Shown here piece after piece: positions 5,950-20,011 of a DNA stretch of 64,000 nt. Numbering within the stretch: position 1 is the stretch's first letter; each line of letters begins with the position of its first letter. The stretch is from a bacterium (GTDB taxonomy: Bacteria > Zhuqueibacterota > Zhuqueibacteria > Residuimicrobiales > Krinioviventaceae). The position numbers and the translations under genes were made by a program. The DNA is taken from assembly GCA_963693055.1 (NCBI GenBank), contig OY843751.1:5472001-5536000 (forward strand), read 5' to 3'. The notes beneath the pieces were generated by a model, which was given only the letters and a program-made list of their open reading frames with translations, did no database searches and was not told the origin of the DNA.

Positions 5950-8487
5950 TTACATTTCCAACATCTCTTCCTCATAATAATTTCCATTTCTATAAGAAGC
6001 AACGTTTCTATTATCACTATCGGTTAATTCGAATTGTGCTGTCATGCTGCGCATTTCTTCAGCCTGACTTGATAACTCTTCAGCAGTACTTGCTGATTCT
6101 TCCGCATTTGCAGCATTCTGCTGAGTCAACATGTTCAACTGTTCCAGAGCTTTATTGACCTGTGAAATACCTTCAGTTTGTTCACTTGAACCGGCTGCAA
6201 CTTCAGCCATCAGATCACTAACTTTGGCTACCTGTTCAAGAATTCCATGCAACTGCTCAGCAACCTGTTTGTTATATTCAAAACCCGATTCCGCGTTTTG
6301 TACAGCTTCTGTAATTAACTGTGAAGTATTTTTAGATGATTCTGCACTCTGTATAGCAAGGTTTCTCACTTCTTCTGCAACAACAGCAAAGCCCTTGCCT
6401 GCTTCACCTGCTCTTGCAGCTTCAACAGCAGCATTCAAAGCCAGCAGATTGGTTTGAAATGCAATATCATCAATTGTCTTGATAACTTTGATAGTTTCAT
6501 CAGATGACTTTTTGATCTTTTCAATAGCACCAGACAAAAGGTCCATACTTTTCATACCCTGGTCAGCACTTTCTCGTGTTGCATCTGTAAGATGCTTGGC
6601 TTCACTTGCATTATTCGAGTTATGCATTGCCATTGAAGATACTTCATGCAGTGAGCTCGATATTTCTTCAAGTGAGCTTGCCTGTTCTGATGCTCCCTGG
6701 GCCAAAGCCTGTCCACCGGAACTAATCTGATCCGATGCTGATGCCACCTGATCGGAACTAACAGCAACCTGATGTAAACTGGTATCTAGATTATCCAGTG
6801 CGGTATTTAAAGAAACTTTAACTTTATTAAAATCGCCCTTGTATTCACCTTTCATTCTAACGGTTAATTTTCGGTTTGCTACTTTTGAAAGAACATTCGA
6901 AGCTTCATTTATTGGACGTGTAATTGCTGACACGATACTATTAATACCTATAATTATATTTTTAAAATCATTTTGAAATTGATCCGAGTTCGCGCGTTTA
7001 GAAAGATCTCCTCTCACAGCACTGGAAGCCAAAGTCTCAATCTCAGACAAAAGCAGTTGGATCCGTTTTTTCATCTTTGCCATTGCTTTGCCCAGATTAT
7101 CATCTTCAGATGCAATCTGCTCTTCTGCTGATAAATCTCCTTCAGCAATTTGTTCTGCTAAATGGGTTTTTGCTTGCAACGCTGTTATCATTCTTCTAAA
7201 AGAATCTGCCAATTCACCTGTTTCATCAGAAGATACATGATCAATTTCCTGGTTAATATCTCCCAATGCCAATTTGTCAGCACTTTTGCTCATCCGGGTT
7301 ATGGGCTTGGCAATTCGTGTGCTCATAAAAATTGAAGCTAACGTACCCAAAACAAGTATAACAAGTCCTGTTCCAGCTATGCCCATTAACAACTGTTTCA
7401 AAGCATCATCAATTCTATACAACGCTTGATAATAATCATCCTCATATGTTCCCACACCTATCACCCAATCCCAGGGTTCATAATATGCAATGGATGCAAT
7501 TTTCATTCTCGCTCTAGTATCACCTTCATTCAACCAGGGATACCTTTCAAAATCAATCTGGGTACCTTTTAATTTTAATGCCTTGTTAATTACAGATTGT
7601 ATAAAAAGGTTCCCATCAGAGTCTTTGGCATTCCAAATATTCTCACCATCGCGCTCACCACCTTTTGAAATGATATATTCACCCTGCTGCTCGCCTTTTC
7701 CCTGCAAAACATATACATACCCTGTCTTTCCAACTGTAATGTCAAGAATTGCATGGCGCAAACTCTTTATGGCTTCTTGTTTAATACCTACATATAGCAC
7801 ACCAATTACTTTATCATTATTATCAAATAGCGGCTTGTATGCTGTGATATACCAATCATTGACAACATAAGCACGGCCATAAAAGGTTTCCCCTTTTAAA
7901 ATAGTAGAAATCACTTGATTCGCTTGCCCATCAGGATTTATAGCAGGAATAAAGGTACCCATTGCCCGGTTTCCACTCAAATTTTTAACATTGGTAGCTA
8001 CTCGTAACATATCTCCGGACTCATTCATCCTTTGGAAAATTGTGCAAGTCCCTCCAACTAAATTTTCAATATCATCAATAAAAGGCACCTTTTGATCAAA
8101 ATCCTGAATCTGCCCCAGCCAGGAACTTCCGATATTAACTTGAGGCAATTCAACAGATAGTGATTCATTTGTATATTGATTTTTAGCTTCCCAGGTTACC
8201 GTACTTGAACTGAAATTGATCCCACCATTTCTATTAAACAGCTCACTCGCAACAACAAGATCATCCTTTACCTTATCTTTCAATACGTCATTCATTGAAT
8301 CACATAAATGATATACATCCTTGGCTATTTGAGAGATATTTTCCTTAATCAAAACATCAATTTCATCTGTAACTTTGGCCTTTAAAGCTCCTTTTTGAAA
8401 ACCAACCTGAATCAAAATAATTACAATCGGTATCAAAACAAATAAAAAAGACAAAGCCATGATTTTGTATTTAATTGTAAATCGCAT
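5950..8487 (-). CDS. Methyl-accepting chemotaxis protein (periplasmic Cache domains, HAMP domains, signalling domain)
   Basis: Two TM helices; Cache-like motifs [17 protein letters not shown] and [10 protein letters not shown]; hairpin tip [37 protein letters not shown]; GAGGTG RBS before ATG 8487. Confidence 0.95.
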
Positions 8488-8518
8488 TGCACACCTCAAC
8501 TTTTTTTATATTTGTTAA

Positions 8519-8535
8519 GGCAATTGTAATGCCAA
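8519..8535 (-). promoter_or_regulatory. sigma54 (-24/-12) promoter of the MCP gene
   Basis: TTGGCATTACAATTGCC, with exact GG-N10-GC spacing about 30 bp upstream of the start codon. Confidence 0.75.
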
Positions 8536-8749
8536 CTTGCAACATGATAGATATAATCATATAACAACAAGCAAAACCATGCAAATGGAAAGCGAATAAA
8601 AACAATACCTTGCAAGCAAAACATACTAAATTCAGACTAATGAAAGCAAAATTTGCACCAACATGGTTGTTGAGAGTCATAGCTGTAAAAATTTCTTACA
8701 GTAGTGTAAAATAATTTTTCTTTTCAGGAAATAATAAAAGGGATGACAT

Positions 8750-8775
8750 AAAAAGCCCTGTCTGAAACAGGGCTT
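8750..8775 (-). terminator. Intrinsic terminator after the nqr-apbE-nqrM-like cluster
   Basis: Minus strand reads AAGCCCTGT-TTCAG-ACAGGGCTT followed by a T-run. Confidence 0.8.
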
Positions 8776-8780
8776 AAATT

Positions 8781-9035
8781 TTAGTGGTTACCGCAGCTGC
8801 ATTGATCTCCACAAGACTTTTTGTTCAAAGCATCATACTTTTCTACAAATTTCATTTTCTCGTCATAACAACCGCATGAATGATCATCATCATGTTCATC
8901 GGTATCACAATGACCGCCCCCACAGCAGCCTTCGGTACCTGGTCTTTTCTTATATTTGCTAAAATTCAGAGCAAACGCGAAAAAGGAAAAAAGAACAACC
9001 ATTACCAAAGCTACTAAAAGTATTTGCACAATCAT
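8781..9035 (-). CDS. nqrM: NqrM-like small membrane protein with Cys/His-rich C-terminus (putative Na+-NQR maturation factor)
   Basis: Single N-terminal TM helix and GCCGGGHC...CGC motif. It lies directly after apbE, the canonical nqrM position. Confidence 0.6.
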   Translation of the reverse strand: MIVQILLVALVMVVLFSFFAFALNFSKYKKRPGTEGCCGGGHCDTDEHDDDHSCGCYDEKMKFVEKYDALNKKSCGDQCSCGNH

Positions 9036-9039
9036 AATA

Positions 9040-10116
9040 TCACCTGTTATTAATAGTATTAATTAAATTCTCAAAACCGGGTGTCATCTTTTCAACAAAG
9101 TCTTTTTTTTCTCTAATGATCATAAAAACCAAAAGTTCCTCGTCAATAGCAAACTGGTATCCTTTTTCCGGTCCTAATACGGAAATTGCAGTAGCATAAG
9201 CATCCGCTATTTGGCATGACGGATGGATAACTGTTACAGATGCAAGATTATGAGTTATAGGTCTACCGGTTCTTGGATCAATTGTATGTGAATAACGAAT
9301 CCCGTTTTTTTCAAAATAGTTTAAATAGTCTCCTGATGTAGCTACACCCACATTATTTACAGAAAGAGCTTTAACATAGCCTGGCTCTGTCTTTGGAGAT
9401 GCAATACCAATGCGCCATTTATCTGTATTAGCGTTATGCCCCCGGGCTCTAATTTCGCCGCCTATTTCTACCAAATAGTTTTCATAATCCTGCTGTTCAA
9501 GATAATTGGCAACTATATCCACTCCATAACCTTTTGCAATGGACGAAAGATCACAATACAATTCAGGAATAGTCTTGCTTACAACAGAGCGGCTTGTATC
9601 GACAGATAAATTATGGTAACCCACCCTGCTTAAACGTTCAGTAATTTCATCGTCTGGCGGAACCTCATCTTTATGGTGCTCGGGCCCAAATCCCCATAGG
9701 TTTACCAGGGGACCCACTGTAACATCAAATGCACCATCAGATTTTTCACTGGTTTGGATTGCATTGTAAAACACAAAGGATAACGCTTTTGAAACAGGAA
9801 ATTCAGTAGTCTCTGAAAATTTATTAAATCTGGAAAGCTCGGAAGAATCAATATAGGTAGACATTTGCATATTGACCTGCTCAAGCAGCGAATCAATATC
9901 ATTCTTTACTTTTTCTATATCAATCACATCATCTGGGGCAGTAACAATCTTTATTGAAAAACTGGTCCCCATTGTGCGGCCGGCCAGTGCATGTTCGTTA
10001 AATTTGTGCCGGTCACACCGGGTCCAATAACTGGCAAACAGTAAAACAGTAAAAAAAACAACCAGAAGAACAGCTTTATTTTTTCTTTTTCCATTGCCAG
10101 TTTTCATAGTATTCAA
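9040..10116 (-). CDS. apbE: FAD:protein FMN transferase ApbE (start may be ATG 10107)
   Basis: GRTMGT, GAFDVTVGPLVNLWGFG, DLSSIAKGYGVD, EIGGE, ATSGDY and HTIDPRTG motifs. Confidence 0.95.
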   Translation of the reverse strand: MNTMKTGNGKRKNKAVLLVVFFTVLLFASYWTRCDRHKFNEHALAGRTMGTSFSIKIVTAPDDVIDIEKVKNDIDSLLEQVNMQMSTYIDSSELSRFNKFSETTEFPVSKALSFVFYNAIQTSEKSDGAFDVTVGPLVNLWGFGPEHHKDEVPPDDEITERLSRVGYHNLSVDTSRSVVSKTIPELYCDLSSIAKGYGVDIVANYLEQQDYENYLVEIGGEIRARGHNANTDKWRIGIASPKTEPGYVKALSVNNVGVATSGDYLNYFEKNGIRYSHTIDPRTGRPITHNLASVTVIHPSCQIADAYATAISVLGPEKGYQFAIDEELLVFMIIREKKDFVEKMTPGFENLINTINNR

Positions 10117-10540
10117 AGCTTATCATCTCGTTTAAATTTTTAATTTCTTCATTTTTTTCAATCAAAATGGTTTTTGCGACATCACCCATTGAGAGAAACC
10201 CAATGTATTCACCTTCTTTTTCCACCAGAATATGCCTGAACCGATGACCCAAAAATTTATCCATTAATTGATAAATAGAGTCAGAATGCTTTGCCGCAAT
10301 CAGGTTTGTTGTCATATAGTCACCTATTTTGGCATTTTTTATATCAAGACTATCATCAAGAATGTCTTGCATTAAATCACGTTCGGTCCAAATGCCAGTG
10401 ACAACATCATCTTTTGTTACCAGGATAGCACCAATCTTGTGCTCGTTCATAATCTTTAAAGTTTCAGCAATCGTTGAATCTACCGGTACGGCAATTACCT
10501 GTTCTGATTTAAGGTTAACAATTTCTTCGGCTGTTTTCAT
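10076..10540 (-). CDS. Stand-alone CBS-pair protein
   Basis: IGAILV..GIWTERD and FRHILV..GFLSMGD motifs, with a GGAGG RBS. Confidence 0.9.
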   Translation of the reverse strand: MKTAEEIVNLKSEQVIAVPVDSTIAETLKIMNEHKIGAILVTKDDVVTGIWTERDLMQDILDDSLDIKNAKIGDYMTTNLIAAKHSDSIYQLMDKFLGHRFRHILVEKEGEYIGFLSMGDVAKTILIEKNEEIKNLNEMISFEYYENWQWKKKK

Positions 10541-10659
10541 AAAGCCTCCTTTATATTTATTAATTTAAATATAATTGTCAACCGCACTTTATTTATTCCC
10601 ACAAAAGCAGAAATAATACAAGATCGGCTTTAAATCCTCTAGCAATCATTTAAAATCGA

Positions 10660-11067
10660 TTATTTTACACCTTTGGCTTTGAAAAATTCCGAATAGGCCA
10701 TATCAGTTTTCAAAATATGATTGGCCAACCACTCTTTCAGGAATTTACTCAAATCAATTACCATCAATGTACTGCCATTTTCAAATTTTGCTTTATATTC
10801 CATTACTTTTTGTTTCAAGTCATTATGCTCTTTTTGATGTGTGAAAATTGCAGAATAACCAAAACGGGTCATCAATTCTTCTTCGGTATCAAAATGGATG
10901 ATCGTATAATTGATCAATTCCTCAAATATCTCTCCCAACACCGAATTAGCTTTGCCGGCACTCATGGCTTCATAAAAGTCATTAACCAAACTAACTAATT
11001 TTTGATGTTGCTTGTCAATTTTATCTATTCCAACACAATAAGAATCTTTCCATTCAAAATAAGCCAT
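10660..11067 (-). CDS. Bacteriohemerythrin (single domain)
   Basis: W...Y..G...ID.QH, HF..EE, H...H and WL..HI...D motifs; all diiron ligands are present. Confidence 0.95.
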   Translation of the reverse strand: MAYFEWKDSYCVGIDKIDKQHQKLVSLVNDFYEAMSAGKANSVLGEIFEELINYTIIHFDTEEELMTRFGYSAIFTHQKEHNDLKQKVMEYKAKFENGSTLMVIDLSKFLKEWLANHILKTDMAYSEFFKAKGVK

Positions 11068-11178
11068 TCTCTCCTACGGCCTAAAAATATCAAGAAAAAA
11101 ATATATCCTTTTATCATATAAGCCAATTCAATTTAATTTATTATAGAATCTGAACAAAAAATTCAAACGTTTAATAAC

Positions 11179-11589
11179 TCAGGAAATAATCTTGTTGTCT
11201 CTTAAAAATTTTACATACTGCATATCCGTTTGCAAAATATGATTTGCCAACCACTCTTTAAGATATTTGCTCAATTCAATTACAACGCTTGAACTACCTG
11301 CAAGATATTTCTCCTGACTGGATTTAATCTTGCTGGTAAAGCCATCATGATAGGCTTTATGTGCTGTAAAAGTGGGATAATTATACTTTTCCAGCAGCTT
11401 TTCTTCGGTAGAAAAATGGGTGATCGTATAATCCAATAGATTTTGCAAAATCGGTCCCATTACTTCTTTACTTTTTCCGGCACTCATTGTTTCATACAAC
11501 TGATTTATATATTCAACCAGTTTTTTATGCTGTGTATCAATTGTAGGTATAGTGGTGCTATAGCTGTCTTTCCATTCAAAAAAAGCCAT
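11179..11589 (-). CDS. Bacteriohemerythrin (single domain), paralog of the neighbouring gene
   Basis: GGAG RBS before ATG 11589 (MAFFEWKDSY), with IDTQH, HFSTEE, HKAYH and WLANHILQTD motifs. Confidence 0.95.
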   Translation of the reverse strand: MAFFEWKDSYSTTIPTIDTQHKKLVEYINQLYETMSAGKSKEVMGPILQNLLDYTITHFSTEEKLLEKYNYPTFTAHKAYHDGFTSKIKSSQEKYLAGSSSVVIELSKYLKEWLANHILQTDMQYVKFLRDNKIIS

Positions 11590-11617
11590 TTCATAACTCC
11601 TTATTTTTGATTTTTTA

Positions 11618-12850
11618 TTAACCAAAATCATCAAACAAGATATTTTCGGGCTCTACACCAAGATCATCAAGCATTTTGAAAACAGCATTAATCATCATTG
11701 GAGGACCACATAAATAATATTCGCAATCTTCAGGTGCCTTGTGTTTGCCAAGATATTCATCAAGAATAACCTGATGTATAAAACCTACATATCCTTCCCA
11801 GTTGTCTTCTGGCAAAGGTTCAGACAGTGCTACATGCCACTTGAAATTATCATGATTGGCCTGCAAAGTATCAAAATCTTCCTGATAGAAAATTTCTCGT
11901 TTACTTCTTGCGCCATACCAGAATGTCATTTTTCGTTTTGAATCCAAACGTTTTAACTGATCAAAAATATGAGACCGCATGGGTGCCATACCTGCACCAC
12001 CACCAATAAAAACCATTTCATTATCGGTTTCGCGTGCAAAAAATTCTCCATAAGGACCGGATATTGTTACCGTGTCTCCCGGTTTTAAATTAAAAATAAA
12101 TGAAGACATCTGGCCCGGCGGTACACTTGGCTTGTTTGGAGGAGGCGAAGCAATACGTACATTCAGCATAATGATGCCCTTCTCCTCGGGATAACTTGCC
12201 ATAGAATAAGCTCGCAAAACGGGCTCATTCACTTTTGAGACAAATTGCCACATGTTGTACTTGTCCCAATCGTCTCTATATTCTTCTTCAATATCAAAAT
12301 CTTTATAACTTACAGTATGTGGTGGTGCTTCAATTTGAATATAACCACCCGCTCTAAAGTTAACATCTTCACCTTGGGGCAGTTCAAGCACCAGCTCTTT
12401 GATAAAAGTAGCAACATTATGGTTCGATTTTACTTTACATTCCCACTTTTTAATTTCAAATACTTCTGCAGGTACTTCCAACTTCATATCACCTTTAACA
12501 GGAAGCTGGCAGCTCAGGCGATATCCTTCACGCACCTGTCCACGGGTCAATTTTGAACGCTCTGTAGCAAGCACATCACCACCACCTTCTGTGACGATGA
12601 TTTTACACTCACCACAAGTACCACCTCCACCGCAAGCGGATGGAATAAAAATACTCTGATCTGCCAGAGAGTTCAAAAGCTTGTCACCCATTGGGACTTC
12701 AAAAGTATGGTCCGGATCATCATTGATAACAATTTTGGCTTTGCCGCTTTGAACAAGCTTTGACTTGGCCAGTAAAATAATTAATACAAGGACCAGTACA
12801 ATCAGCGTGAACATGAACACGCCGAGTAATATTAAACTAAATCCCGACAT
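11618..12850 (-). CDS. nqrF: Na+-translocating NADH:quinone reductase subunit F
   Basis: [2Fe-2S] motif [12 protein letters not shown]...RLSCQ, plus [20 protein letters not shown] and C-terminal DDFG. Confidence 0.97.
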
Positions 12851-12865
12851 CTATCCTCCTTCCCC

Positions 12866-13477
12866 CTATAATTGAATACCAGAAAATATCATAAATGCAA
12901 TGGCCATTAACCCTACAGTTATAAAGGTTATGCCCAGCCCACGCAAACCAGTGGGAACATTGCTGTATTTCATTTTTTCGCGAATACCTGCCAGAGCGAT
13001 AATAGCCAAAGCAAAACCAATACCAGAGCCAAAGCCAAATACCACACTATCTGGAAAATTATATCCACGTTCTACCATAAACAACGATCCACCTAAAATA
13101 GCACAGTTTACAGTAATAAGGGGTAAAAAGATACCCAAAGAGTTATAAAGTTTGGGTACATATTTATCAAGAATCATTTCAAGGATCTGCACCATAGCTG
13201 CAATAACACCAATATAGGTAATAAGCCCTAAAAATGTGAGATCCACATCCGGTAGCCCAGCCCATGACAAGGCGCCAGCTTTTAACACATGATTATAAAT
13301 CAAATTGTTCACCGGCAGGGTGATGGCTTGCACAACCACAACAGCCAAGCCCAAACCTACTGCAGTGTCCACTCGTTTGGAAACCGCAAGAAAAGTACAC
13401 ATGCCCAGGAACAGAGCCAGGGCCATGTTTTCCATAAAAATGGATTTTACAAATAAACTCAGATAATGTTCAAACAT
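12866..13477 (-). CDS. nqrE: Na+-NQR subunit E
   Basis: [26 protein letters not shown] and C-terminal FSGIQL. Confidence 0.97.
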
Positions 13478-13479
13478 GG

Positions 13480-14100
13480 TTATTCCTCTTCAACTTGCTC
13501 AGGTTTCCAGGTTCTAAAGATCCAAATTAACAGACCAATTATAAAGAAAGCGCTAGGTGACAAAACAAACAAACCATTGGGTGCATACCAACCGCCTTCT
13601 GTAACGGGTTGCAGTACAGTAAATCCTAAAAGCTTTCCAGAGCCCAACAGTTCTCTGAAAAACCCTACAAACAGCAATACAAAACTGTAGCCCAATCCAT
13701 TACCAATACCATCCAGAAAACTTAGCCATGGTGGATTTTTAAGGGCAAACGCTTCAGCACGTCCCATAATAATACAGTTTGTAATGATCAAACCAACGTA
13801 AACTGACAACTGTTTGCTGACATCAAAAGCAAAAGCTTTGATCAACTGATCAGCAATAATAACCAATGAAGCAATAATGGTCATTTCTACCAGAATACGT
13901 ATTGAACTGGGAACATAATTACGAATTGAACTGACCGCAAGGTTTGAAAACGAAACTACAAACGTTACCGCTAGTGACATAACGATAGCTGTTTCAAGCT
14001 TTGAAGTAACCGCTAATGCGGAACAGATTCCCAATATTTGTTTTGCAATAGGATTATTGTTAAATATAGGATCCAATATTATTTGTTTATATTTACTCAT
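13480..14100 (-). CDS. nqrD: Na+-NQR subunit D
   Basis: [16 protein letters not shown] and [17 protein letters not shown]. Confidence 0.97.
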
Positions 14101-14888
14101 TTCAAGCCCTCCCTTAATTGCTCAATATAGGGGCCATATCCATCATTACCTAACCAGAATTTCACAGTGTTATCCAATCCACGAGTTGTCAATGTTGCAC
14201 CAGAAAGACCATCTACCTGATATTTTGCATCGGGAGAAGATTTATCAACTGTGCTCTTGATGACCGTTATTTTTACATTACCCTCGTCATCAAATGCCTG
14301 CTTGCCCGGCCAGATCGCTTTCCACTTGGGATTATCGATTTCACCACCAAGCCCGGGGGTTTCGCCATGTTCATAAAAAGTCAAACCCCGAATGGTTTTA
14401 ACATCATGATCAATAGCGATAAATCCGTACATTGTAGACCACAAACCGAACCCATAAATCGGTAAAATCACTTCGTCCAATTCACCATCTTTTATCACCT
14501 GATAAACAGTCATGTATTTAGGCATACGTTTAATATCCGCTATATCTTTTTCAGCGGGAATACTTTTTCCATATTCCGAATCTTCTGCCATTGCTTTTAT
14601 ATCAAATTTTTCAACATTCAATTCATCATTATAATCTGATTCGGGAATGGGTTCACCGGTTTTCATGTCAATAATTTCGCCTCTTACCAGATCTTTATAG
14701 GTTTGAGTTACATCTATATTATCTTTATACAAATCACCGGCAACTAAAATATTCTTCAACTTGTCCAGCTTTTTGTTTTCCTGCTGTATACCATGCAGGG
14801 AAACAGCCGCAGAGGAAACCAATATCGAACACACAAGGCAAACACCCAGTGCTACGATAAGAGTTTTTTTTGTGCTATCATTAGACAT
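14097..14888 (-). CDS. nqrC: Na+-NQR subunit C
   Basis: Start MSNDS overlaps the nqrB stop; [15 protein letters not shown] and the FMN site [10 protein letters not shown] are present. Confidence 0.97.
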
Positions 14889-16080
14889 TACGTAACAGCC
14901 TCCTCTTGATATTTTTATTGATATACACCTTGTCAATAATAGGTGCAAATACATTCATAAACAGGATCGCAAGCATCATTCCTTCAGGAAAGGCAGGATT
15001 AATAACACGAACCAGTACGGTCAACGCACCAATTAAAAATCCGTATATCCAATGTCCTTTTATTACCTGGGGGGCGCTTACAGGATCTGTCGCCATAAAC
15101 ACAGTACCAAAAGCAAACCCACCCAAAACCAGATGCCACATGGGGGTAACTGCAAACATGGAATTGGTATCGCTTCCTATTACGTTTAGCAATAACGAGA
15201 ATGCTGCCATACCCACCACAGAGCTCAACATAATTCGCCAAGATCCTATACCGGTAACAATCAAAATAAAAGCACCAATTAATATTGCAAGTGTAGAGGT
15301 CTCACCCATAGAACCGGGGGCCAATCCGATAAAAGAATTCCACCAAGTCGCAGACATTTTCATAACCGGATCAGCAAGCTCACCCAGCGCGGTAGCGCGT
15401 GACAATCCGTCAACAGCAACCCACACTTTATCTCCAGAAATCTGAGCAGGATAGGCAAAGAATAAAAAGACGCGTGCGGTTAATGCGGGGTTAAGAATAT
15501 TCATACCCACGCCACCAAAGACTTCCTTTCCAATAACAACACCAAAGGTGATACCTACGGCAACCTGCCAATAAGGAATTGTTGGAGGAAGAATAAGTGG
15601 GAACAGAATACTGGTTACGAAAAAGCCTTCATTTACTTCATGCTTACGTATAGTGGCAAACAAAACTTCCCAAATACCACCAACAGCCAAAGTAACAATA
15701 TATACAGGAAAGAAGTAAAGCGCTCCATGCAGTAAATTTAGCCATAAATTAGAGGGATCAAAACCGAGTCCCATCCAATTCATAAAACGGGCCTGCCATA
15801 AAAGATCAGTCGCTCCCGCATTGGCTGCAAGCGCAAGATTAGCCTGGTAACCTGTATTGTAAAGCGCCATACCAATGGCAGGAAACAATGCTATCATTAC
15901 CATCATCATCATTCGTTTTAAATCCAACGAATCACGGATATGTGTTCGCTTCAGTGTCACTGTGCTGGGAGTGTAGACTAGTGTGTCTAACATCTCCCAC
16001 ACATAGAAAAGCTTTTCATACTTGCCACCCTTATGAAAGTGCTTTTCCTGCTTGTCAAGAAAATTTCTTAAAGATTTCAC
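14881..16080 (-). CDS. nqrB: Na+-NQR subunit B
   Basis: HIRD..DLKRMM, NEGFFVT, NPALTAR, GSMGETS and FMATDPVS motifs. Confidence 0.97.
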
Positions 16081-17429
16081 TATCCTTCCTTCTCTATGAC
16101 GGTTAACGTTTTTCTCAAATTCTCACCATGATCAATTTTTGACGGACAGACAAAAGTACACAATGCCAAATCTTCTTCAATCAATTCAAGGCAGCCAAGT
16201 TTTTCACTTTCTTCAACATCTTGAATTGCGAGAGCTTTTAACAAATGTGCAGGTAAAATATCCAAAGGCATTACTTTTTCATAACTACCTATTGGAACGA
16301 TTGCCCGAACGCCACCGTTTTGCGAAGTATTGAAATCAAAGCGTTTATTCGGTATCAGTTTAGACATTACTATATTCTTTACAGAATAATGTTTTGGGCC
16401 GTAATCCAGCCATCCCAAAAAGTGTCTTTCGCGTCCTTCATGAATCACTGTTATCTGCTGATGAAAACGTCCCAAATAATTTCTTTCAGGAGTTGAAGTA
16501 TGACCATTAAATACAGAACCCGAAATTGTTCTGTTATCACCTTCCTTTAATTCCCCTTCAAGCAATTCACTCAAACAAGCACCAACCCGGGTTCGCAATA
16601 GACGAGGTGATGTTGCTCCGGCACCTCCCAAAGCAACAACATGTTCAACACTCAATTTACCGGTTGTAAACAATTTACCAACCTTAATTACATCCTGTGC
16701 TTGTATATGCCATACAATTTTGTTTTTCCCAATGGGATCCAAAAAGTGAATGTGAGTTCCGGGCAAGCCGGCAGGATGCGGACCATCAAACGACTCTACA
16801 GAAAATTGAGGTTTATCAGGAACGGGTATTTCCTCGGACGGTTTCTTACAAACAAATACTTTACCTTCAGTAAGACGAGAGAGAACCAATAGTCCATTCT
16901 TAAAATCCGTTTCCTGACCTTGAACAATCTTTTCAACTACAGGGGCCAATGGATTCGTATCCATAGCTGTTACAAAAATAGAATTGGGCACTGTTTCAGG
17001 ATTCGCAACATGACCAAAGGGCCTGGCTAATAAAGTTGTCCACAGACCGGAATCTACCAACTGTTTCACAACCATTTCACGGTCCAGTGTTGCCAATGCA
17101 TTCTCACCAAATGCAGTAAAAGAGACTTCTTCATCGCCTTCCAGCTCTATCACAAGCGACAAAAATGCGCGTTTCTCACCCCTGTTAATTTCTACTACTT
17201 TACCAGCCCCTGGAGCAGTATATTTTACTCCTGGAAGCTTTTTGTCAGTTAATAAAAGCTGACCTAGTTTAACAGAGTCTCCTATATCTACTTCCATGGT
17301 TGGTTTCAAACCAACATAGTCTTCTCCCAACAGTGCCACCCGTTTTACTGATTTTCCGTTTTCAATTTCCTGACGGGGTTCACCATTAATGGGAAGTGTG
17401 TTTCCTTTTTTTATTTTGAACGTTCCCAT
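16080..17429 (-). CDS. nqrA: Na+-NQR subunit A
   Basis: [24 protein letters not shown] and [14 protein letters not shown] motifs. Confidence 0.97.
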
Positions 17430-17596
17430 GTACACCCTTTATTTTACTAAAATACAGTGTATTAGTTAACAAATTTTTCTCCTAACCTTTTAAATTATAA
17501 AAAAACAATACTAATTACAATTATTTTTTTTGAGATCATGGATTAATAAAGTGCTTTGCTATATAATTTACCGGGCTTTTATCTTGTGAATACTGG

Positions 17597-17625
17597 TTGA
17601 CTTTTTGAAAAAAAATCATTAAAAT
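17597..17625 (+). promoter_or_regulatory. sigma70-type promoter for the PTS IIA-ClC operon
   Basis: TTGACT-N17-TAAAAT. Confidence 0.65.
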
Positions 17626-17739
17626 AATAACTTACGTAGTATGGTCATTCCATTCATGTATTTTCGTACTACATTTGTATATTTATATTTTTGCCGGTCC
17701 CGGATGTAGACCACCTTTGAAATATTGGAGGAAACAAAC

Positions 17740-18195
17740 GTGAGAATTGCAGACTATTTAAGTGACGGTCTGATTTTTTTAGACATAGAAGCTACTGACA
17801 AAGACACCACTATTGCAAAAATAGTAGAACTGATGGATAATAACAAAATCCTTTCAGACGCCAGCGGTTTCCTGAGTGAAGTTAATCAACGAGAAAGTCT
17901 TGGTAGCACCGGTATCGGTTACGGAATAGCATTACCCCATGCCAGAACACAAAATGTGAAAAACATTGTAATTTCTGTAACCCGTTTAAAAAATGGGGTA
18001 GATTTTGGTGCCGAAGACAAGAAACCCGTAAAACTCGTTTTTTTGTTGGGGACCCCCCTCAAAGCAGTGGGTGAATATCTCAAAGTTCTTGCAAAATTAT
18101 CCAAATTATTAAGAGACGAAAAAATTCGTGACCAAATCCTGGTTGCACAAACTCCCTCGGAAATCCGTAGAATTTTCGAAGATGCTGAAAATTAA
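17740..18195 (+). CDS. PTS IIA domain protein (fructose/mannitol/nitrogen-regulatory PtsN-like)
   Basis: GGAGG RBS before GTG 17740; RE.LGSTGIG.GIALPHAR contains the phosphorylatable His. Confidence 0.9.
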   Translation: MRIADYLSDGLIFLDIEATDKDTTIAKIVELMDNNKILSDASGFLSEVNQRESLGSTGIGYGIALPHARTQNVKNIVISVTRLKNGVDFGAEDKKPVKLVFLLGTPLKAVGEYLKVLAKLSKLLRDEKIRDQILVAQTPSEIRRIFEDAEN

Positions 18196-18223
18196 AACTC
18201 ATTCTGGTTGAACTGTTCCCATT

Positions 18224-20011
18224 ATGTTCCAAATTCAAAAAACCGGTAAATTTTTAAATCCTTTTGCAATAAATTCTTCCGGCAGGTTGTTCCTCATTAG
18301 CATAGTAGTAGGAATCATCTCCGGTTTGGGGGCAATTGCTTTTTTTTCATTGCTTAATCATGTATCTCATTTTTTCTTGCATCAATTGGCAAATTATTAT
18401 CCCCCGGAACCCTCTGGTGAGCTTTCCGGATATCACAATGCCGGTGGTGAACTTCGGAGATGGGTTTTAATCTTTGCTCCTGTTATTGGCGGATTGATCT
18501 CAGGAATACTTGTTTTTACATGGGCACCTGAAGCTGAAGGTCACGGAACCGACGCGGTTATTGATTCCTTTCATCACAAGCGTGGTGTAATCAGAAAACG
18601 CGTTCCCATCATTAAAGCCATTGCATCCATTGTTACAATTGGCAGTGGGGGAAGTGCAGGACGTGAGGGTCCTATTGCTCAAATTGGTGCGGGATTCGGC
18701 TCGTATCTTGGTACCGTATTAAAACTCAGTGACGACGAAAAGCGCATTCTGGTTATTGCGGGTGCGGCAGGCGGCATAGGCGCTATTTTCCGTTCTCCTC
18801 TTGGCGGTGCATTGTTTGCTGTAGAAGTATTGTACAAAAGAGATTTTGAATCCAAAGCATTGATTCCCGCGTTAATATCTTCAATCGTTGCCTTTTCCAT
18901 TTTTGCTTCGCGTTTTGGTTGGGGACAACTATTTGAAACTCCAGATTATCAATTCAGCAATCCCTCAGAATTATTGTTTTACCTTTTACTGGGCCTGTTT
19001 TGTGCATATATGGGCCTGTTTTACATCAAGATTTTCTACGGCATGCGCGATCATTTTTTTCACACCATCAAAATTAAACCACAGCTTCGCCCCGCTATTG
19101 GCGGTTTAATGATCGGTATTACTGGCTTTTTTGCCCCTCATATTCTTGCTTCCGGATACGGATATTTGCAGCAAGCCATGAACGGAAACCTGACTATTCA
19201 ATTCATGCTGATTGCAGCTATTTTAAAAATATTTGCCACATCTTTTACAATTAGCTCCGGTGGTAGTGGTGGTGTATTTGCACCTTCACTATTCATAGGC
19301 GGCATGTTGGGTGGCGCTTTTGGTCAGGTTGCCGAACAGCTTTTTCCCTCCCTCATAAGCAATCCCAATGCTTTTGTATTGGTGGGCATGGGTGCCTTTT
19401 TTGCAGGAGCTGCCAAAGTACCTATATCTTCAATGATCATGGTGAGTGAAATGACCGGTGGATATCACCTGCTGGTTCCCATGATGCTCAGCTCATCCGC
19501 TGCTTATGTAGCAACATCACGAACAACTCTGTACGAAAAACAAGTGCCGCGCATGGCAGACTCTCCCGCTCACATGGGCGATTTTACAATCGATGTGTTG
19601 GACACATTAGTAGTTGACCAGGCATTCCGAAAAGAAAAAGTGCCCATATTAAAAGTCGACACTCCGCTTCTTGAATTTCAGAATATTGTACAGGAAGGGC
19701 ACGACAATCATTTTCCTGTGGTTAACCACACAAACGAAATTGTGGGAATTATTTCACTTAGAAATACCCGTTCTATATTGTTTGAAAATGACATGTGTGA
19801 TCTGCTAATAGCACAGGATCTTATGAGTCCGGCAGTAACTGTAACCCCCGCAGAAAGTCTGAGAAGCGCATTAAAGAAATTTATGGATTATGAATACGCC
19901 CAGATCCCGGTTGTTGATTTACGTGACGAACGCAGAATACTGGGCATGTTAAATCACGGAGATGTTATTGTAGCTTATAATAAAGAAGTAATGAAACGCA
20001 AAACCAATTAA
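18224..20011 (+). CDS. ClC-family chloride channel/antiporter with C-terminal CBS pair
   Basis: AEGHGTD, GSAGREGP and GGSGGVFAP signatures, multiple TM helices and two CBS domains. Confidence 0.93.
   Translation: MFQIQKTGKFLNPFAINSSGRLFLISIVVGIISGLGAIAFFSLLNHVSHFFLHQLANYYPPEPSGELSGYHNAGGELRRWVLIFAPVIGGLISGILVFTWAPEAEGHGTDAVIDSFHHKRGVIRKRVPIIKAIASIVTIGSGGSAGREGPIAQIGAGFGSYLGTVLKLSDDEKRILVIAGAAGGIGAIFRSPLGGALFAVEVLYKRDFESKALIPALISSIVAFSIFASRFGWGQLFETPDYQFSNPSELLFYLLLGLFCAYMGLFYIKIFYGMRDHFFHTIKIKPQLRPAIGGLMIGITGFFAPHILASGYGYLQQAMNGNLTIQFMLIAAILKIFATSFTISSGGSGGVFAPSLFIGGMLGGAFGQVAEQLFPSLISNPNAFVLVGMGAFFAGAAKVPISSMIMVSEMTGGYHLLVPMMLSSSAAYVATSRTTLYEKQVPRMADSPAHMGDFTIDVLDTLVVDQAFRKEKVPILKVDTPLLEFQNIVQEGHDNHFPVVNHTNEIVGIISLRNTRSILFENDMCDLLIAQDLMSPAVTVTPAESLRSALKKFMDYEYAQIPVVDLRDERRILGMLNHGDVIVAYNKEVMKRKTN

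What the first reader, a model, noticed from the sequence alone, without database searches (positions are those of the whole stretch)
8781..17429. Na+-NQR operon with two hemerythrins and a CBS protein inserted between nqrF and apbE/nqrM
Seen: the order nqrA-B-C-D-E-F-Hr-Hr-CBS-apbE-nqrM-like, all on one strand. The first hemerythrin starts 28 bp after the nqrF stop, CBS overlaps apbE, and the only strong terminator is after the last gene. Established: the canonical Vibrio-type locus is nqrA-F-apbE-nqrM; NqrF FAD leaks superoxide under O2; bacteriohemerythrins bind O2/NO; CBS pairs bind adenylates. Inference: an O2-buffering or sensing and energy-charge-sensing accessory module for the sodium pump, or an NqrF-reduced hemerythrin O2-scavenging branch. 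I know of no description of this arrangement.
Basis: partly seen in the sequence, partly recalled or inferred. Interest (0 to 1): 0.75.

Follow-up and report, generated by a model that had tools for sequence, protein, structure and literature searches.

The report
Sodium pump operon carrying two hemerythrins
The operon for a sodium-pumping respiratory enzyme in an uncultured KSB1-type bacterium carries two extra hemerythrin (oxygen-binding type) genes seen only in its own genus, plus a CBS sensor-type gene that is standard in this operon across its phylum; the hemerythrins likely help the pump cope with oxygen, which is untested.

Summary
On the minus strand, 17429 to 8781, the genes run nqrA-B-C-D-E-F, hemerythrin 1, hemerythrin 2, CBS-pair protein, apbE and a small NqrM-like gene. 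One strong terminator follows the last gene.

The three extra genes are not one inserted module.
- **CBS gene:** a regular member of this operon across the phylum. Of 56 genomes with nqrF, 41 have the CBS gene directly after it. Orthologs in four genomes of other phyla lie outside nqr operons.
- **Hemerythrins:** found in the operon only in this genome and its one congener. They are an old tandem duplicate under strong purifying selection (dN/dS 0.02-0.03). They are the only bacteriohemerythrin-model matches in this 6.5-Mb genome.
- **Slot after nqrF:** variable. Other genera hold unrelated genes there.

My reading, inferred and untested: the hemerythrins are made together with NQR and buffer or scavenge cytoplasmic O2 in a bacterium that has both a haem-copper and a bd oxidase. 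The CBS protein would be a nucleotide-sensing regulator.

I found no paper describing this layout. The nearest precedent is a Methylomonas bacteriohemerythrin gene beside an NQR operon. I found no RNA data, and the complex predictor was unavailable. An earlier scan note reports a CBS gene at the end of an NQR-like operon in another genome.

The parts
16080..17429 (-). nqrA (the open frame extends to a GTG at 17435)
   Evidence: NF003759 649.7 bits, cut-off 505. Pfam NQRA_N, NQRA_2nd and NQRA_SLBB. The ATG at 17429 aligns with relatives.
14881..16080 (-). nqrB
   Evidence: NF003756 591.4 bits, cut-off 414. PF03116.
14097..14954 (-). nqrC
   Evidence: NF003749 327.7 bits, cut-off 255. FMN_bind.
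13480..14100 (-). nqrD
   Evidence: NF006777 346.1 bits, cut-off 235.
12866..13477 (-). nqrE
   Evidence: TIGR01940 337.8 bits, cut-off 247.55.
11618..12850 (-). nqrF
   Evidence: TIGR01941 701.5 bits, cut-off 295. Fer2, FAD_binding_6 and NAD_binding_1.
11179..11589 (-). Hemerythrin 1 (136 aa). ATG 28 nt after the nqrF stop, with an AAGGAG ribosome-binding site.
   Evidence: NF033749 151.8 bits, cut-off 84. DcrH hemerythrin domain 2avk E 2.2e-23. H21, H58, E62, H77, H81, H117 and D122 present. dN/dS 0.032 against the congener.
11068..11178 (-). Spacer between the two hemerythrin genes, poorly conserved
   Evidence: 70 of 112 aligned columns identical to the congener. Fold z = -0.76.
10660..11067 (-). 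Hemerythrin 2 (135 aa), 48% identical to hemerythrin 1
   Evidence: NF033749 149.5 bits. Same seven ligand positions. Groups with hemerythrin 1 in the tree, support 94/93. dN/dS 0.022.
10541..10659 (-). Conserved non-coding spacer before CBS, with a hairpin at about 10580-10629 and a TTGACA hexamer
   Evidence: 110 of 119 columns identical to the congener, against 72-76% at third codon positions. The hairpin is kept in both species with changes on both sides of its tip. Single copy in the genome. No Rfam match.
10076..10540 (-). Stand-alone CBS-pair protein (154 aa) with a conserved C-terminal tail SWEYYENWRWKK
   Evidence: PF00571, two stretches. 27-sequence alignment with Y145, E146, W148 and W150 invariant. 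AlphaFold2 model pLDDT 87.3. Best structural match Atu1752, 3fhm.
9040..10116 (-). apbE (flavin transferase); overlaps the end of CBS
   Evidence: PF02424 291.7 bits. NF007774 306.4 bits, below its equivalog cut-off of 498.
8781..9035 (-). NqrM-like small membrane protein (84 aa): one N-terminal hydrophobic helix, then KYKKRP and a GCCGGGHC cysteine cluster
   Evidence: Sequence. Alignment of 28 positional counterparts. No Pfam or NCBIfam family. 94 relatives, none with a Pfam domain.
8753..8775 (-). Intrinsic terminator-like hairpin ending the operon
   Evidence: 10-pair stem followed by a T run. -14.8 kcal/mol, z = -3.95.

Best explanation
This is a complete Na+-NQR-type operon (nqrABCDEF, apbE and an NqrM-like gene). 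It carries a CBS-pair gene that is typical of its phylum, and a tandem pair of bacteriohemerythrin genes specific to its genus. The hemerythrins are likely co-transcribed with the pump genes and would act as cytoplasmic O2-binding buffers or scavengers for a microaerobic respiratory chain.

**Shown:**
- the gene order and the family assignments;
- the seven di-iron ligand positions in both hemerythrins;
- strong purifying selection on both hemerythrins;
- their restriction to one genus;
- the phylum-wide placement of CBS directly after nqrF;
- one haem-copper oxidase and one bd oxidase in the genome.

**Inferred:**
- The hemerythrins ride on the nqr transcript. Only 28 nt separate nqrF from hemerythrin 1, no terminator intervenes, and the ribosome-binding site is strong.
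- They bind O2 like their solved relatives.
- They serve either to keep O2 away from the O2-reactive flavin and iron-sulfur centres of NQR, or to hold O2 for the terminal oxidases when it is scarce.
- The CBS protein binds an adenine nucleotide and tunes NQR assembly or activity. Its gene is translationally overlapped with apbE.
- The conserved spacer before CBS sets the expression level of the CBS-apbE-nqrM part separately.
For: **Operon and families:**

**Transcription signals:** the 28-nt gap and ribosome-binding site are.

**Hemerythrins look functional:**
- These are the only two matches to the bacteriohemerythrin model NF033749 in the 6.5-Mb genome.
- Their nearest solved relatives are the DcrH hemerythrin domain and the Methylococcus bacteriohemerythrin.
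- All seven ligand positions are present.
- Both genes are kept in the congener at 94% and 96% protein identity.
- dN/dS is 0.032 and 0.022, against 0.014-0.042 for NqrA, NqrE and NqrF.
- GC3 is 0.34 and 0.33, like the neighbouring genes, so this is not a recent import.
- The two group together in the tree with support 94/93, which points to an old tandem duplication.

**Oxygen physiology:** the genome encodes one COX1 haem-copper oxidase subunit and one cytochrome bd subunit I.

**Other hemerythrin-type genes beside this enzyme superfamily:**
- nqrF, an nqrM-like gene and an HHE-domain gene in genome G056;
- a hemerythrin gene 18 nt upstream of rnfC-rnfD on metagenome contig L132;
- a published case, bhr-99 beside the NQR operon on the opposite strand in four Methylomonas genomes (PMC12607906, passages read).

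**CBS:**
- 41 of 42 orthologs in 167 genomes of the phylum lie directly after nqrF. The 42nd sits at a contig edge.
- 19 of the 20 relatives' loci fetched have apbE next. The 20th contig ends.
- The model is a Bateman fold, and its relatives include the nucleotide-binding AcuB and CBSX2.
Against: - No expression data: no RNA run holds the stretch.
- No binding or activity data.
- The hemerythrin linkage is confined to 2 genomes of one genus. None of the 22 non-congener genome loci and none of the 45 metagenome loci holding the nearest hemerythrin relatives (49% identity or less) shows nqr genes.
- In other genera the same slot holds unrelated genes: an S9 peptidase, a PepSY-type membrane protein with a lipoprotein-like ORF, a YgaP-like membrane protein and a small cysteine-rich ORF. 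A GNAT gene lies between CBS and apbE in one genome. Insertion there may need no functional tie to NQR.
- Hemerythrin-domain genes are common in the phylum, in 126 of 167 genomes. Those of related genera sit in uninformative contexts.
- CBS orthologs with the same tail lie outside nqr operons in 4 of 4 genomes examined from other phyla. In one of these no nqrF was found.
- Sequence alone does not separate O2 carriers from O2, NO or redox sensors.
Confidence: 0.4

Rival explanations
1. Hitch-hiking insertion. The junction after nqrF is a permissive landing site where unrelated genes settle and borrow the strong nqr transcript. On this view the hemerythrins serve a general cellular role (O2, NO or iron handling) with no specific link to NQR.
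For: - Across 27 CBS-bearing loci the slot between nqrF and CBS holds five different contents: two hemerythrins (2 loci), a cysteine-rich ORF (5), a lipoprotein-like ORF plus PepSY_TM_like_2 (3), a YgaP-like membrane protein (2) and an S9 peptidase (1). Fourteen loci hold no assignable gene.
- The hemerythrin linkage is limited to one genus.
- The spacer between the two hemerythrin genes evolves fast, at 62% identity.
Against: - The pair are the genome's only matches to the bacteriohemerythrin model, and both sit here.
- Strong purifying selection acts on both.
- There are three other, independent cases of a hemerythrin-family gene beside nqr or rnf genes (PMC12607906).
Confidence: 0.3
2. Iron-centre care. 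The di-iron proteins act with the NqrM-like protein to supply, store or repair iron for the NQR iron-sulfur centres under O2 or NO stress.
For: - They sit among the maturation genes (apbE and the NqrM-like gene).
- In G056 an HHE-domain protein with weak similarity to the RIC/YtfE repair protein (TIGR03652, E 4.7e-05, far below its cut-off) follows nqrF and an nqrM-like gene.
- NqrM is proposed to deliver iron to NqrD/E (PMC6209661 and PMC12174285, passages read).
Against: - Hemerythrins 1 and 2 match the O2-binding bacteriohemerythrin model, not RIC.
- The RIC similarity in G056 is marginal.
- No data bear on iron transfer.
Confidence: 0.12
3. NqrF reduces met-hemerythrin directly, so that NQR plus hemerythrin forms an NADH-driven O2-scavenging side path. 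Alternatively the hemerythrins and CBS are physical regulatory partners of NqrF or NqrA.
For: Hemerythrin 1 begins 28 nt after nqrF. CBS follows nqrF across the phylum.
Against: - Nothing tested supports contact.
- The hemerythrins are absent from 54 of 56 nqrF-bearing genomes of the phylum.
- CBS orthologs with the same tail exist apart from nqr operons, and in one genome where no nqrF was found.
Confidence: 0.08
4. Sensor model. The hemerythrins sense O2, NO or redox state and pass the signal to NQR expression or activity, possibly through the CBS protein.
For: The nearest solved relative is the sensor domain of DcrH. Hemerythrin sensor domains are a known class (review cited within PMC12607906; I saw only the reference entry).
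Against: Both are single-domain proteins with no output domain. CBS occurs without hemerythrins in 39 of the 41 operons that have it.
Confidence: 0.07

Closest known systems
Vibrio cholerae nqrABCDEF-apbE-nqrM operon
   Same: Six structural genes in the same order, followed by the flavin transferase gene and a small cysteine-bearing membrane protein gene. In Vibrio these are co-transcribed (PMC12174285, passages read; PMC6209661).
   Different: Three extra genes lie between nqrF and apbE here. The last gene does not match the NqrM family model.
Methylomonas bhr-99 bacteriohemerythrin beside the NQR operon (PMC12607906)
   Same: A bacteriohemerythrin gene adjacent to an NQR operon, conserved in four genomes of one genus (passage read).
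   Different: In Methylomonas the hemerythrin gene is on the opposite strand and outside the operon. Here two copies lie inside the operon, on the same strand, directly after nqrF.
Single-domain bacteriohemerythrins: Methylococcus capsulatus Bhr (4xpx) and the DcrH hemerythrin domain (2avk)
   Same: Same length, same family model and same di-iron ligand positions.
   Different: The HMMER alignment to the DcrH hemerythrin domain is printed, and I did not compute percent identity to either solved protein. The partner or role is unknown here.
Stand-alone CBS-pair proteins: Atu1752 (3fhm), NE2398 (2rc3), M. tuberculosis HRP1 (1xkf), AcuB, plant CBSX2
   Same: Bateman fold. 3fhm scores E 6.6e-21 by sequence and TM 0.71-0.87 by structure.
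   Different: This family has a conserved 15-residue aromatic and basic C-terminal tail that lies outside the aligned part of Atu1752. In this phylum it also has a fixed place in the nqr operon.
Hemerythrin genes embedded in nitrate reductase operons
   Same: A respiratory-enzyme operon carrying its own hemerythrin gene.
   Different: A different enzyme (Nar, not NQR). I did not verify those notes.

Membership tests
Na+-translocating NADH:quinone oxidoreductase (NqrABCDEF) | All six subunits present and matching the equivalog models | tested here: met
   Six of six pass NCBIfam equivalog cut-offs.
Na+-translocating NADH:quinone oxidoreductase (NqrABCDEF) | Genes in the order A-F in one co-directional cluster | tested here: met
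   Junctions are tight or overlapping.
Na+-translocating NADH:quinone oxidoreductase (NqrABCDEF) | Sodium pumping and quinone reduction | not testable with these tools
   Needs biochemistry.
Bacteriohemerythrin | Match to the family model above its cut-off | tested here: met
   NF033749 at 151.8 and 149.5 bits, cut-off 84.
Bacteriohemerythrin | Seven di-iron ligands (H, HxxxE, HxxxH, HxxxxD; the motif itself is recalled) | tested here: met
   H21, H58, E62, H77, H81, H117 and D122 are present in both proteins. They align to the DcrH hemerythrin domain.
Bacteriohemerythrin | Reversible O2 binding | not testable with these tools
   Needs spectroscopy of the purified proteins.
CBS-pair (Bateman) protein | Two CBS motifs folding as one Bateman module | tested here: met
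   PF00571, two stretches. AlphaFold2 model pLDDT 87.3. Foldseek probability 1.00 to CBS-pair structures.
CBS-pair (Bateman) protein | Adenine-nucleotide binding | not tested
   I did not examine ligand-site residues. It needs a binding assay.
ApbE flavin transferase | Match to the family model | tested here: inconclusive
   Pfam ApbE 291.7 bits, cut-off 25.6. The NCBIfam equivalog NF007774 scores 306.4 bits, below its cut-off of 498. This is family membership, not equivalog rank.
NqrM (DUF539) | Match to the NqrM family model | tested here: not met
   No NqrM hit in Pfam even at E up to 1, and none in NCBIfam. None of the 94 relatives carries a Pfam domain.
NqrM (DUF539) | Small protein at the end of the nqr cluster (after apbE where apbE is present) with one membrane helix and conserved cysteines (features recalled from Kostyrko et al. 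2016, which I could not read) | tested here: met
   Position and sequence. 28 positional counterparts share a hydrophobic N-terminus, a YKKR-type motif and a CC cluster; C37 is invariant and C38 is at least 90% conserved.

The most novel reading that the evidence does not exclude
KSB1 bacteria run a Na+-NQR with cytoplasmic add-on subunits unknown in Vibrio. A CBS-pair protein docks on the pump through its WEYYENWRW tail and gates it by nucleotide status. In this genus NqrF also keeps two hemerythrins reduced, which turns part of the pump's NADH flux into an O2-trapping shield for its own flavin and iron-sulfur centres. Hemerythrin genes beside nqr or rnf genes in other lineages would then mark a wider, unrecognised partnership between di-iron proteins and this pump superfamily.
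Probability: 0.07. Interest if true: 0.8.

Novelty: new variant of a known kind. Interest (0 to 1): 0.45.

Why it matters
Na+-NQR has been studied almost only in Vibrio and a few pathogens, where the operon is nqrA-F plus apbE and nqrM. This locus shows three things about a whole uncultured phylum:
- it routinely adds a CBS-pair gene to the operon;
- it uses an unannotated small protein in the NqrM position;
- it has a variable slot after nqrF, which one genus has filled with two hemerythrins.

If the CBS protein regulates the pump, or the hemerythrins shield it from oxygen, that would be a new layer of control or protection for a major respiratory sodium pump. It would also give a concrete, testable role to two bacteriohemerythrins, a family with few assigned partners. 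If not, the locus is still a clear example of an operon junction that collects passenger genes.

Tried and rejected
- **Complex prediction** (NqrA + NqrF residues 35-410 + CBS as partner): the queue was full. Searches came too early and were not sent on. Nothing was folded, so contact between CBS or the hemerythrins and NQR remains untested.
- **RNA evidence:** no RNA holder listed for window 8700-12900.
- **Known RNA families:** no match in 8300-18300 at E up to 1.
- **FNR/CRP-type box** (TTGATNNNNATCAA, up to 2 mismatches): no hit in the nqrA upstream region 17436-17724. The pattern is loose, with 110 hits in the window against about 80 expected.
- **Sigma-70 scan:** promoter-like hits were only modestly more frequent than in shuffles (46 against 31.7, sd 5.9). 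I did not rely on them.
- **Shared motif upstream of CBS:** reading the upstream sequences of 27 loci by eye showed none beyond the ribosome-binding site.
- **Context of small hemerythrin genes in related genera** (4 loci): glycosidase, SPFH/NfeD, peptidase, NAD synthesis. No common theme.
- **Metagenome scan with the hemerythrin alignment:** I repeated it with the single protein.
- **Kostyrko et al. 2016 on NqrM** (PMC4751810): not held. NqrM features are recalled or taken from passages in PMC12174285 and PMC6209661.
- **Recall that the Atu1752 structure holds AMP and NADH:** I could not confirm it. No paper holds both '3FHM' and 'CBS'. I do not use it.
- **Protein atlas:** generic CBS clusters for the CBS protein. 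For the cysteine-rich ORF the hits were mostly viral hypothetical clusters, at a recognition value below the tool's guide line. Leads only.
- **Recent horizontal transfer of the hemerythrins:** rejected. Their GC3 equals that of the host genes.

Full report
**1. What is there**

The window's minus strand from 17429 to 8781 carries eleven co-directional genes.

- **Nqr subunits.** Each of the six passes an NCBIfam equivalog cut-off: NqrA 649.7 bits (cut-off 505), NqrB 591.4 (414), NqrC 327.7 (255), NqrD 346.1 (235), NqrE 337.8 (247.55) and NqrF 701.5 (295).
- **Hemerythrins.** After nqrF come two single-domain bacteriohemerythrins of 136 and 135 aa. They match NF033749 at 151.8 and 149.5 bits, cut-off 84.
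- **CBS protein.** A 154-aa protein with two CBS motifs follows.
- **apbE.** It matches PF02424 at 291.7 bits. It is below the NCBIfam equivalog cut-off, at 306 against 498.
- **NqrM-like gene.** The last gene encodes 84 aa with one N-terminal hydrophobic helix and a cysteine cluster.

- There are 28 nt between the nqrF stop and the hemerythrin 1 ATG at 11589, which has an AAGGAG ribosome-binding site.
- The spacers are 111 and 119 nt.
- The CBS stop lies inside apbE.
- One strong terminator-like hairpin at 8775-8753 follows the last gene. It folds at -14.8 kcal/mol, z = -3.95.

**2. The organism**

- The window also encodes type IX secretion cargo tails, and GWxTD and DUF4835 proteins.
- Products on relatives' contigs are named 'candidate division KSB1 bacterium' by NCBI.
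- Earlier notes of this scan also call the genome KSB1-like.
- The genome is one 6.5-Mb contig. It encodes one haem-copper oxidase subunit I and one cytochrome bd subunit I, so it can presumably respire oxygen.

**3. The CBS gene is the phylum's norm, not an insertion**

A first search of 40 relatives gave 20 strong CBS orthologs, at 46-96% identity.
- I fetched all 20 loci. In 20 of 20 the gene directly follows nqrF.
- In 19 of 20 it is followed by apbE. The 20th contig ends.

Across 167 genomes of the phylum:
- 56 hold nqrF and 42 hold a CBS ortholog at E of 1e-25 or better.
- By coordinates, 41 of the 42 lie on the nqrF contig, same strand, 32 to 1318 nt downstream. The 42nd is at a contig start.

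Of the 15 nqrF genomes without the CBS gene I fetched 14. G024, on a very short contig, was not fetched. Their layouts:

| Layout after nqrF | Genomes |
|---|---|
| cysteine-rich ORF, then apbE (and nqrM-like) | 4 |
| apbE, then nqrM-like | 3 |
| nqrM-like only | 3 |
| nqrM-like, then an HHE-domain gene | 1 |
| contig ends, or only a small NqrM-like ORF | 3 |

The family has a distinctive feature.
- The tail SWEYYENWRWKK is nearly invariant in 27 sequences; Y145, E146, W148 and W150 are invariant.
- The AlphaFold2 model has mean pLDDT 87.3. It shows a Bateman module and a long helix at 118-139. The tail has low confidence, about 50.
- Its nearest structures are uncharacterised CBS pairs (Atu1752, NE2398), AcuB with adenine nucleotides, M. 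tuberculosis hypoxic response protein 1 and plant CBSX2.

The family is large, with at least 2006 proteins at E of 1e-10 or better, and it is not tied to NQR everywhere. I examined four orthologs from other phyla, all at 49-56% identity. The two I translated, G167 and G169, carry the same tail.
- G167 (titled Melioribacteraceae): nqrF is on another contig.
- G169 (titled Desulfobacterales): no nqrF was found.
- G312: no nqr gene within 8 kb.
- G212: the CBS gene lies 7.7 kb upstream of nqrA.

Only 3 of 151 sampled genomes of G167's phylum have the ortholog. The linkage is therefore a trait of this phylum. An obligate physical partnership with NQR is unlikely.

**4. The hemerythrins are a genus-level addition**

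tblastn with both hemerythrins found them inside the operon only in the window's genome and its congener G001, at 94% and 96% identity.

| Content of the slot between nqrF and CBS (27 CBS-bearing loci) | Loci |
|---|---|
| two hemerythrins | 2 |
| cysteine-rich 80-100-aa ORF with no family | 5 |
| lipoprotein-like ORF plus a PepSY_TM_like_2 protein | 3 |
| YgaP-like membrane protein | 2 |
| S9 peptidase | 1 |
| no assignable gene | 14 |

One genome also has a GNAT gene between CBS and apbE. Family names rest on one representative of each filler.

Hemerythrin-domain genes are common in the phylum, in 126 of 167 genomes. Among the 150 match rows listed, only G000 and G001 have them at the nqr locus; 53 rows were not listed.

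The nearest relatives outside the genus are at most 49% identical.
- 22 non-congener genome loci: none has nqr genes.
- 10 loci from the phylum: nqr queries returned no hits.
- 45 metagenome loci: none has nqr genes.

In a tree of 44 hemerythrins, hemerythrins 1 and 2 with their G001 orthologs group together with support 94/93. One long-branch outsider sits weakly inside the group. Rows aligned over fewer than 110 residues were left out.

The genes are not decaying passengers. dN/dS against G001 is 0.032 and 0.022, against 0.014-0.042 for NqrA, NqrE and NqrF. Their GC3, 0.34 and 0.33, equals that of the neighbours. All seven di-iron ligand positions are present in both, and they align to the DcrH hemerythrin domain and the Methylococcus bacteriohemerythrin. 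They are the only matches to the bacteriohemerythrin model in the genome. Two further matches to the broader Pfam hemerythrin/HHE domain lie elsewhere.

**5. Hints of a wider link**

Three other cases put a hemerythrin-family gene beside this enzyme superfamily.
- **G056, another class of the phylum.** nqrF is followed by a small NqrM-like ORF and a 168-aa HHE-domain protein. The protein matches PF01814 at E 2.5e-12 and has weak RIC/YtfE similarity at E 4.7e-05, far below the cut-off.
- **Metagenome contig L132.** A 157-aa hemerythrin gene ends 18 nt before rnfC-rnfD on the same strand. This is 1 of the 67 non-congener loci screened.
- **Methylomonas.** The paper on M. denitrificans bacteriohemerythrins reports bhr-99 next to the NQR operon, on the opposite strand, in four Methylomonas genomes (PMC12607906, passages read).

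Earlier notes of this scan also report hemerythrin genes inside nitrate reductase operons. I did not check those. These are anecdotes, not a statistic.

**6. Non-coding signals**

Between G000 and G001:
- the spacer between the two hemerythrin genes is 62% identical (70 of 112 columns);
- the spacer before CBS is 92% identical (110 of 119), well above third codon positions at 72-76%.

The spacer before CBS holds a hairpin at about 10580-10629, kept in both species with changes on both sides of its tip (z = -1.74 and -2.54). A TTGACA hexamer lies 35 nt before the CBS ribosome-binding site. The spacer is single-copy in the genome and matches no Rfam family. I read this as a signal that sets the level of the CBS-apbE-nqrM part, either an internal promoter or a processing or attenuation hairpin. 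Which of these it is cannot be told without RNA data.

**7. The last gene**

It has no Pfam or NCBIfam match, even at E up to 1. A profile of 28 positional counterparts finds 94 proteins. All are 'hypothetical' where named, and none has a Pfam domain. Source names include KSB1, Melioribacteraceae, Ignavibacteriae and Calditrichia. It occupies the NqrM position and has the NqrM build, but it fails the family test. I call it NqrM-like by function only, which is an inference.

**8. Mechanism**

My best reading, at confidence 0.4:
- The hemerythrins are translated from the nqr transcript.
- They act as cytoplasmic O2 buffers or scavengers for a microaerobic respiratory chain.
- The CBS protein is a nucleotide-sensing regulator that this phylum has wired to NQR maturation or activity.

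Rivals:
- a passenger insertion with no tie to NQR (0.3);
- iron-centre care together with the NqrM-like protein (0.12);
- direct reduction by NqrF, or physical partnership (0.08);
- a sensor role (0.07).

I did not check them in papers here.

**9. Literature**

- No paper holds 'hemerythrin' with 'nqrF'.
- No paper holds 'CBS domain' with 'nqrF'.
- Four papers hold 'hemerythrin' with 'Na+-translocating NADH' and three were listed. I read passages of one, the Methylomonas paper above.
- The 2025 RNF/NQR review holds neither 'CBS' nor 'hemerythrin' in its text (PMC12174285, term search).
- Two papers hold 'KSB1' with 'Nqr' (listing only).
- The library lacks most subscription journals. Supplements were not consulted.

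**10. Verdict**

This is a new variant of a known system. The more general and better supported novelty is the phylum-wide CBS gene and the variable slot after nqrF. The hemerythrin pair is real and under selection, but it is confined to one genus and is functionally untested.

Noticed in passing
L016:9588-9836:-, L019:6363-6668:+, L020:4869-5114:-, L021:645-893:-, L026:8622-8882:+, L062:5734-6024:-, L063:5591-5887:-, L067:1536-1775:+, L075:966-1223:-: A conserved cysteine-rich ORF of 80-100 aa sits directly after nqrF in 9 genomes of the window's family. Its motif reads FLHVQRRRIEHDKWCEGCG...C..C......CG. It has no Pfam or NCBIfam family. The atlas look-alikes are mostly viral hypothetical clusters, which is a weak lead.
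   Followed up: partly
window 8781-9035 (-) and 27 counterparts (alignment A6): The small protein in the NqrM position belongs to an unannotated family. It has one hydrophobic helix, a YKKRP-type motif and a GCCGGGHC cluster. The family has 94 members, none with a Pfam domain, and its source names come from KSB1, Ignavibacteria-type and Calditrichia bacteria.
   Followed up: partly
window 10541-10659 (-): The 119-nt spacer before CBS is 92% identical to the congener, more than synonymous sites. It holds a conserved hairpin at about 10580-10629 and a TTGACA hexamer. It is single-copy in the genome and has no Rfam match.
   Followed up: partly
L132:2971-6017:+: On a 91.6-kb metagenome contig, a 157-aa hemerythrin gene ends 18 nt before rnfC, with rnfD following on the same strand. 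This would make a hemerythrin the first gene of an Rnf operon.
   Followed up: partly
L069:1298-3284:-: In genome G056 (same phylum, another class) nqrF is followed by a 42-aa NqrM-like ORF, a 168-aa HHE hemerythrin-like protein with faint RIC/YtfE similarity, and an overlapping 386-aa ORF. The last looks like a zinc-type alcohol dehydrogenase by eye; I did not scan it.
   Followed up: partly
alignment A2, last 15 residues (window 10076-10123): The CBS family's C-terminal tail SWEYYENWRWKK is nearly invariant, also in orthologs from other phyla. AlphaFold2 models it with low confidence. It may be a docking or membrane-surface motif.
   Followed up: partly
window 17725-20011 (+): Divergent from nqrA lie a PTS EIIA-2 domain protein (17725-18195) and a CLC chloride channel with its own C-terminal CBS pair (18224-20011).
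   Followed up: no
window 5950-8499 (-): An 849-aa chemoreceptor with a Cache_3-Cache_2 sensor, two HAMP domains and an MCP signalling domain follows the nqr terminator on the same strand. This synteny is kept in the congener, at 87% identity.
   Followed up: no
L015:7887-8955:+ (also L017, L023): In one related genus the slot after nqrF holds a 151-aa lipoprotein-like ORF with no family and a PepSY_TM_like_2 membrane protein.
   Followed up: partly
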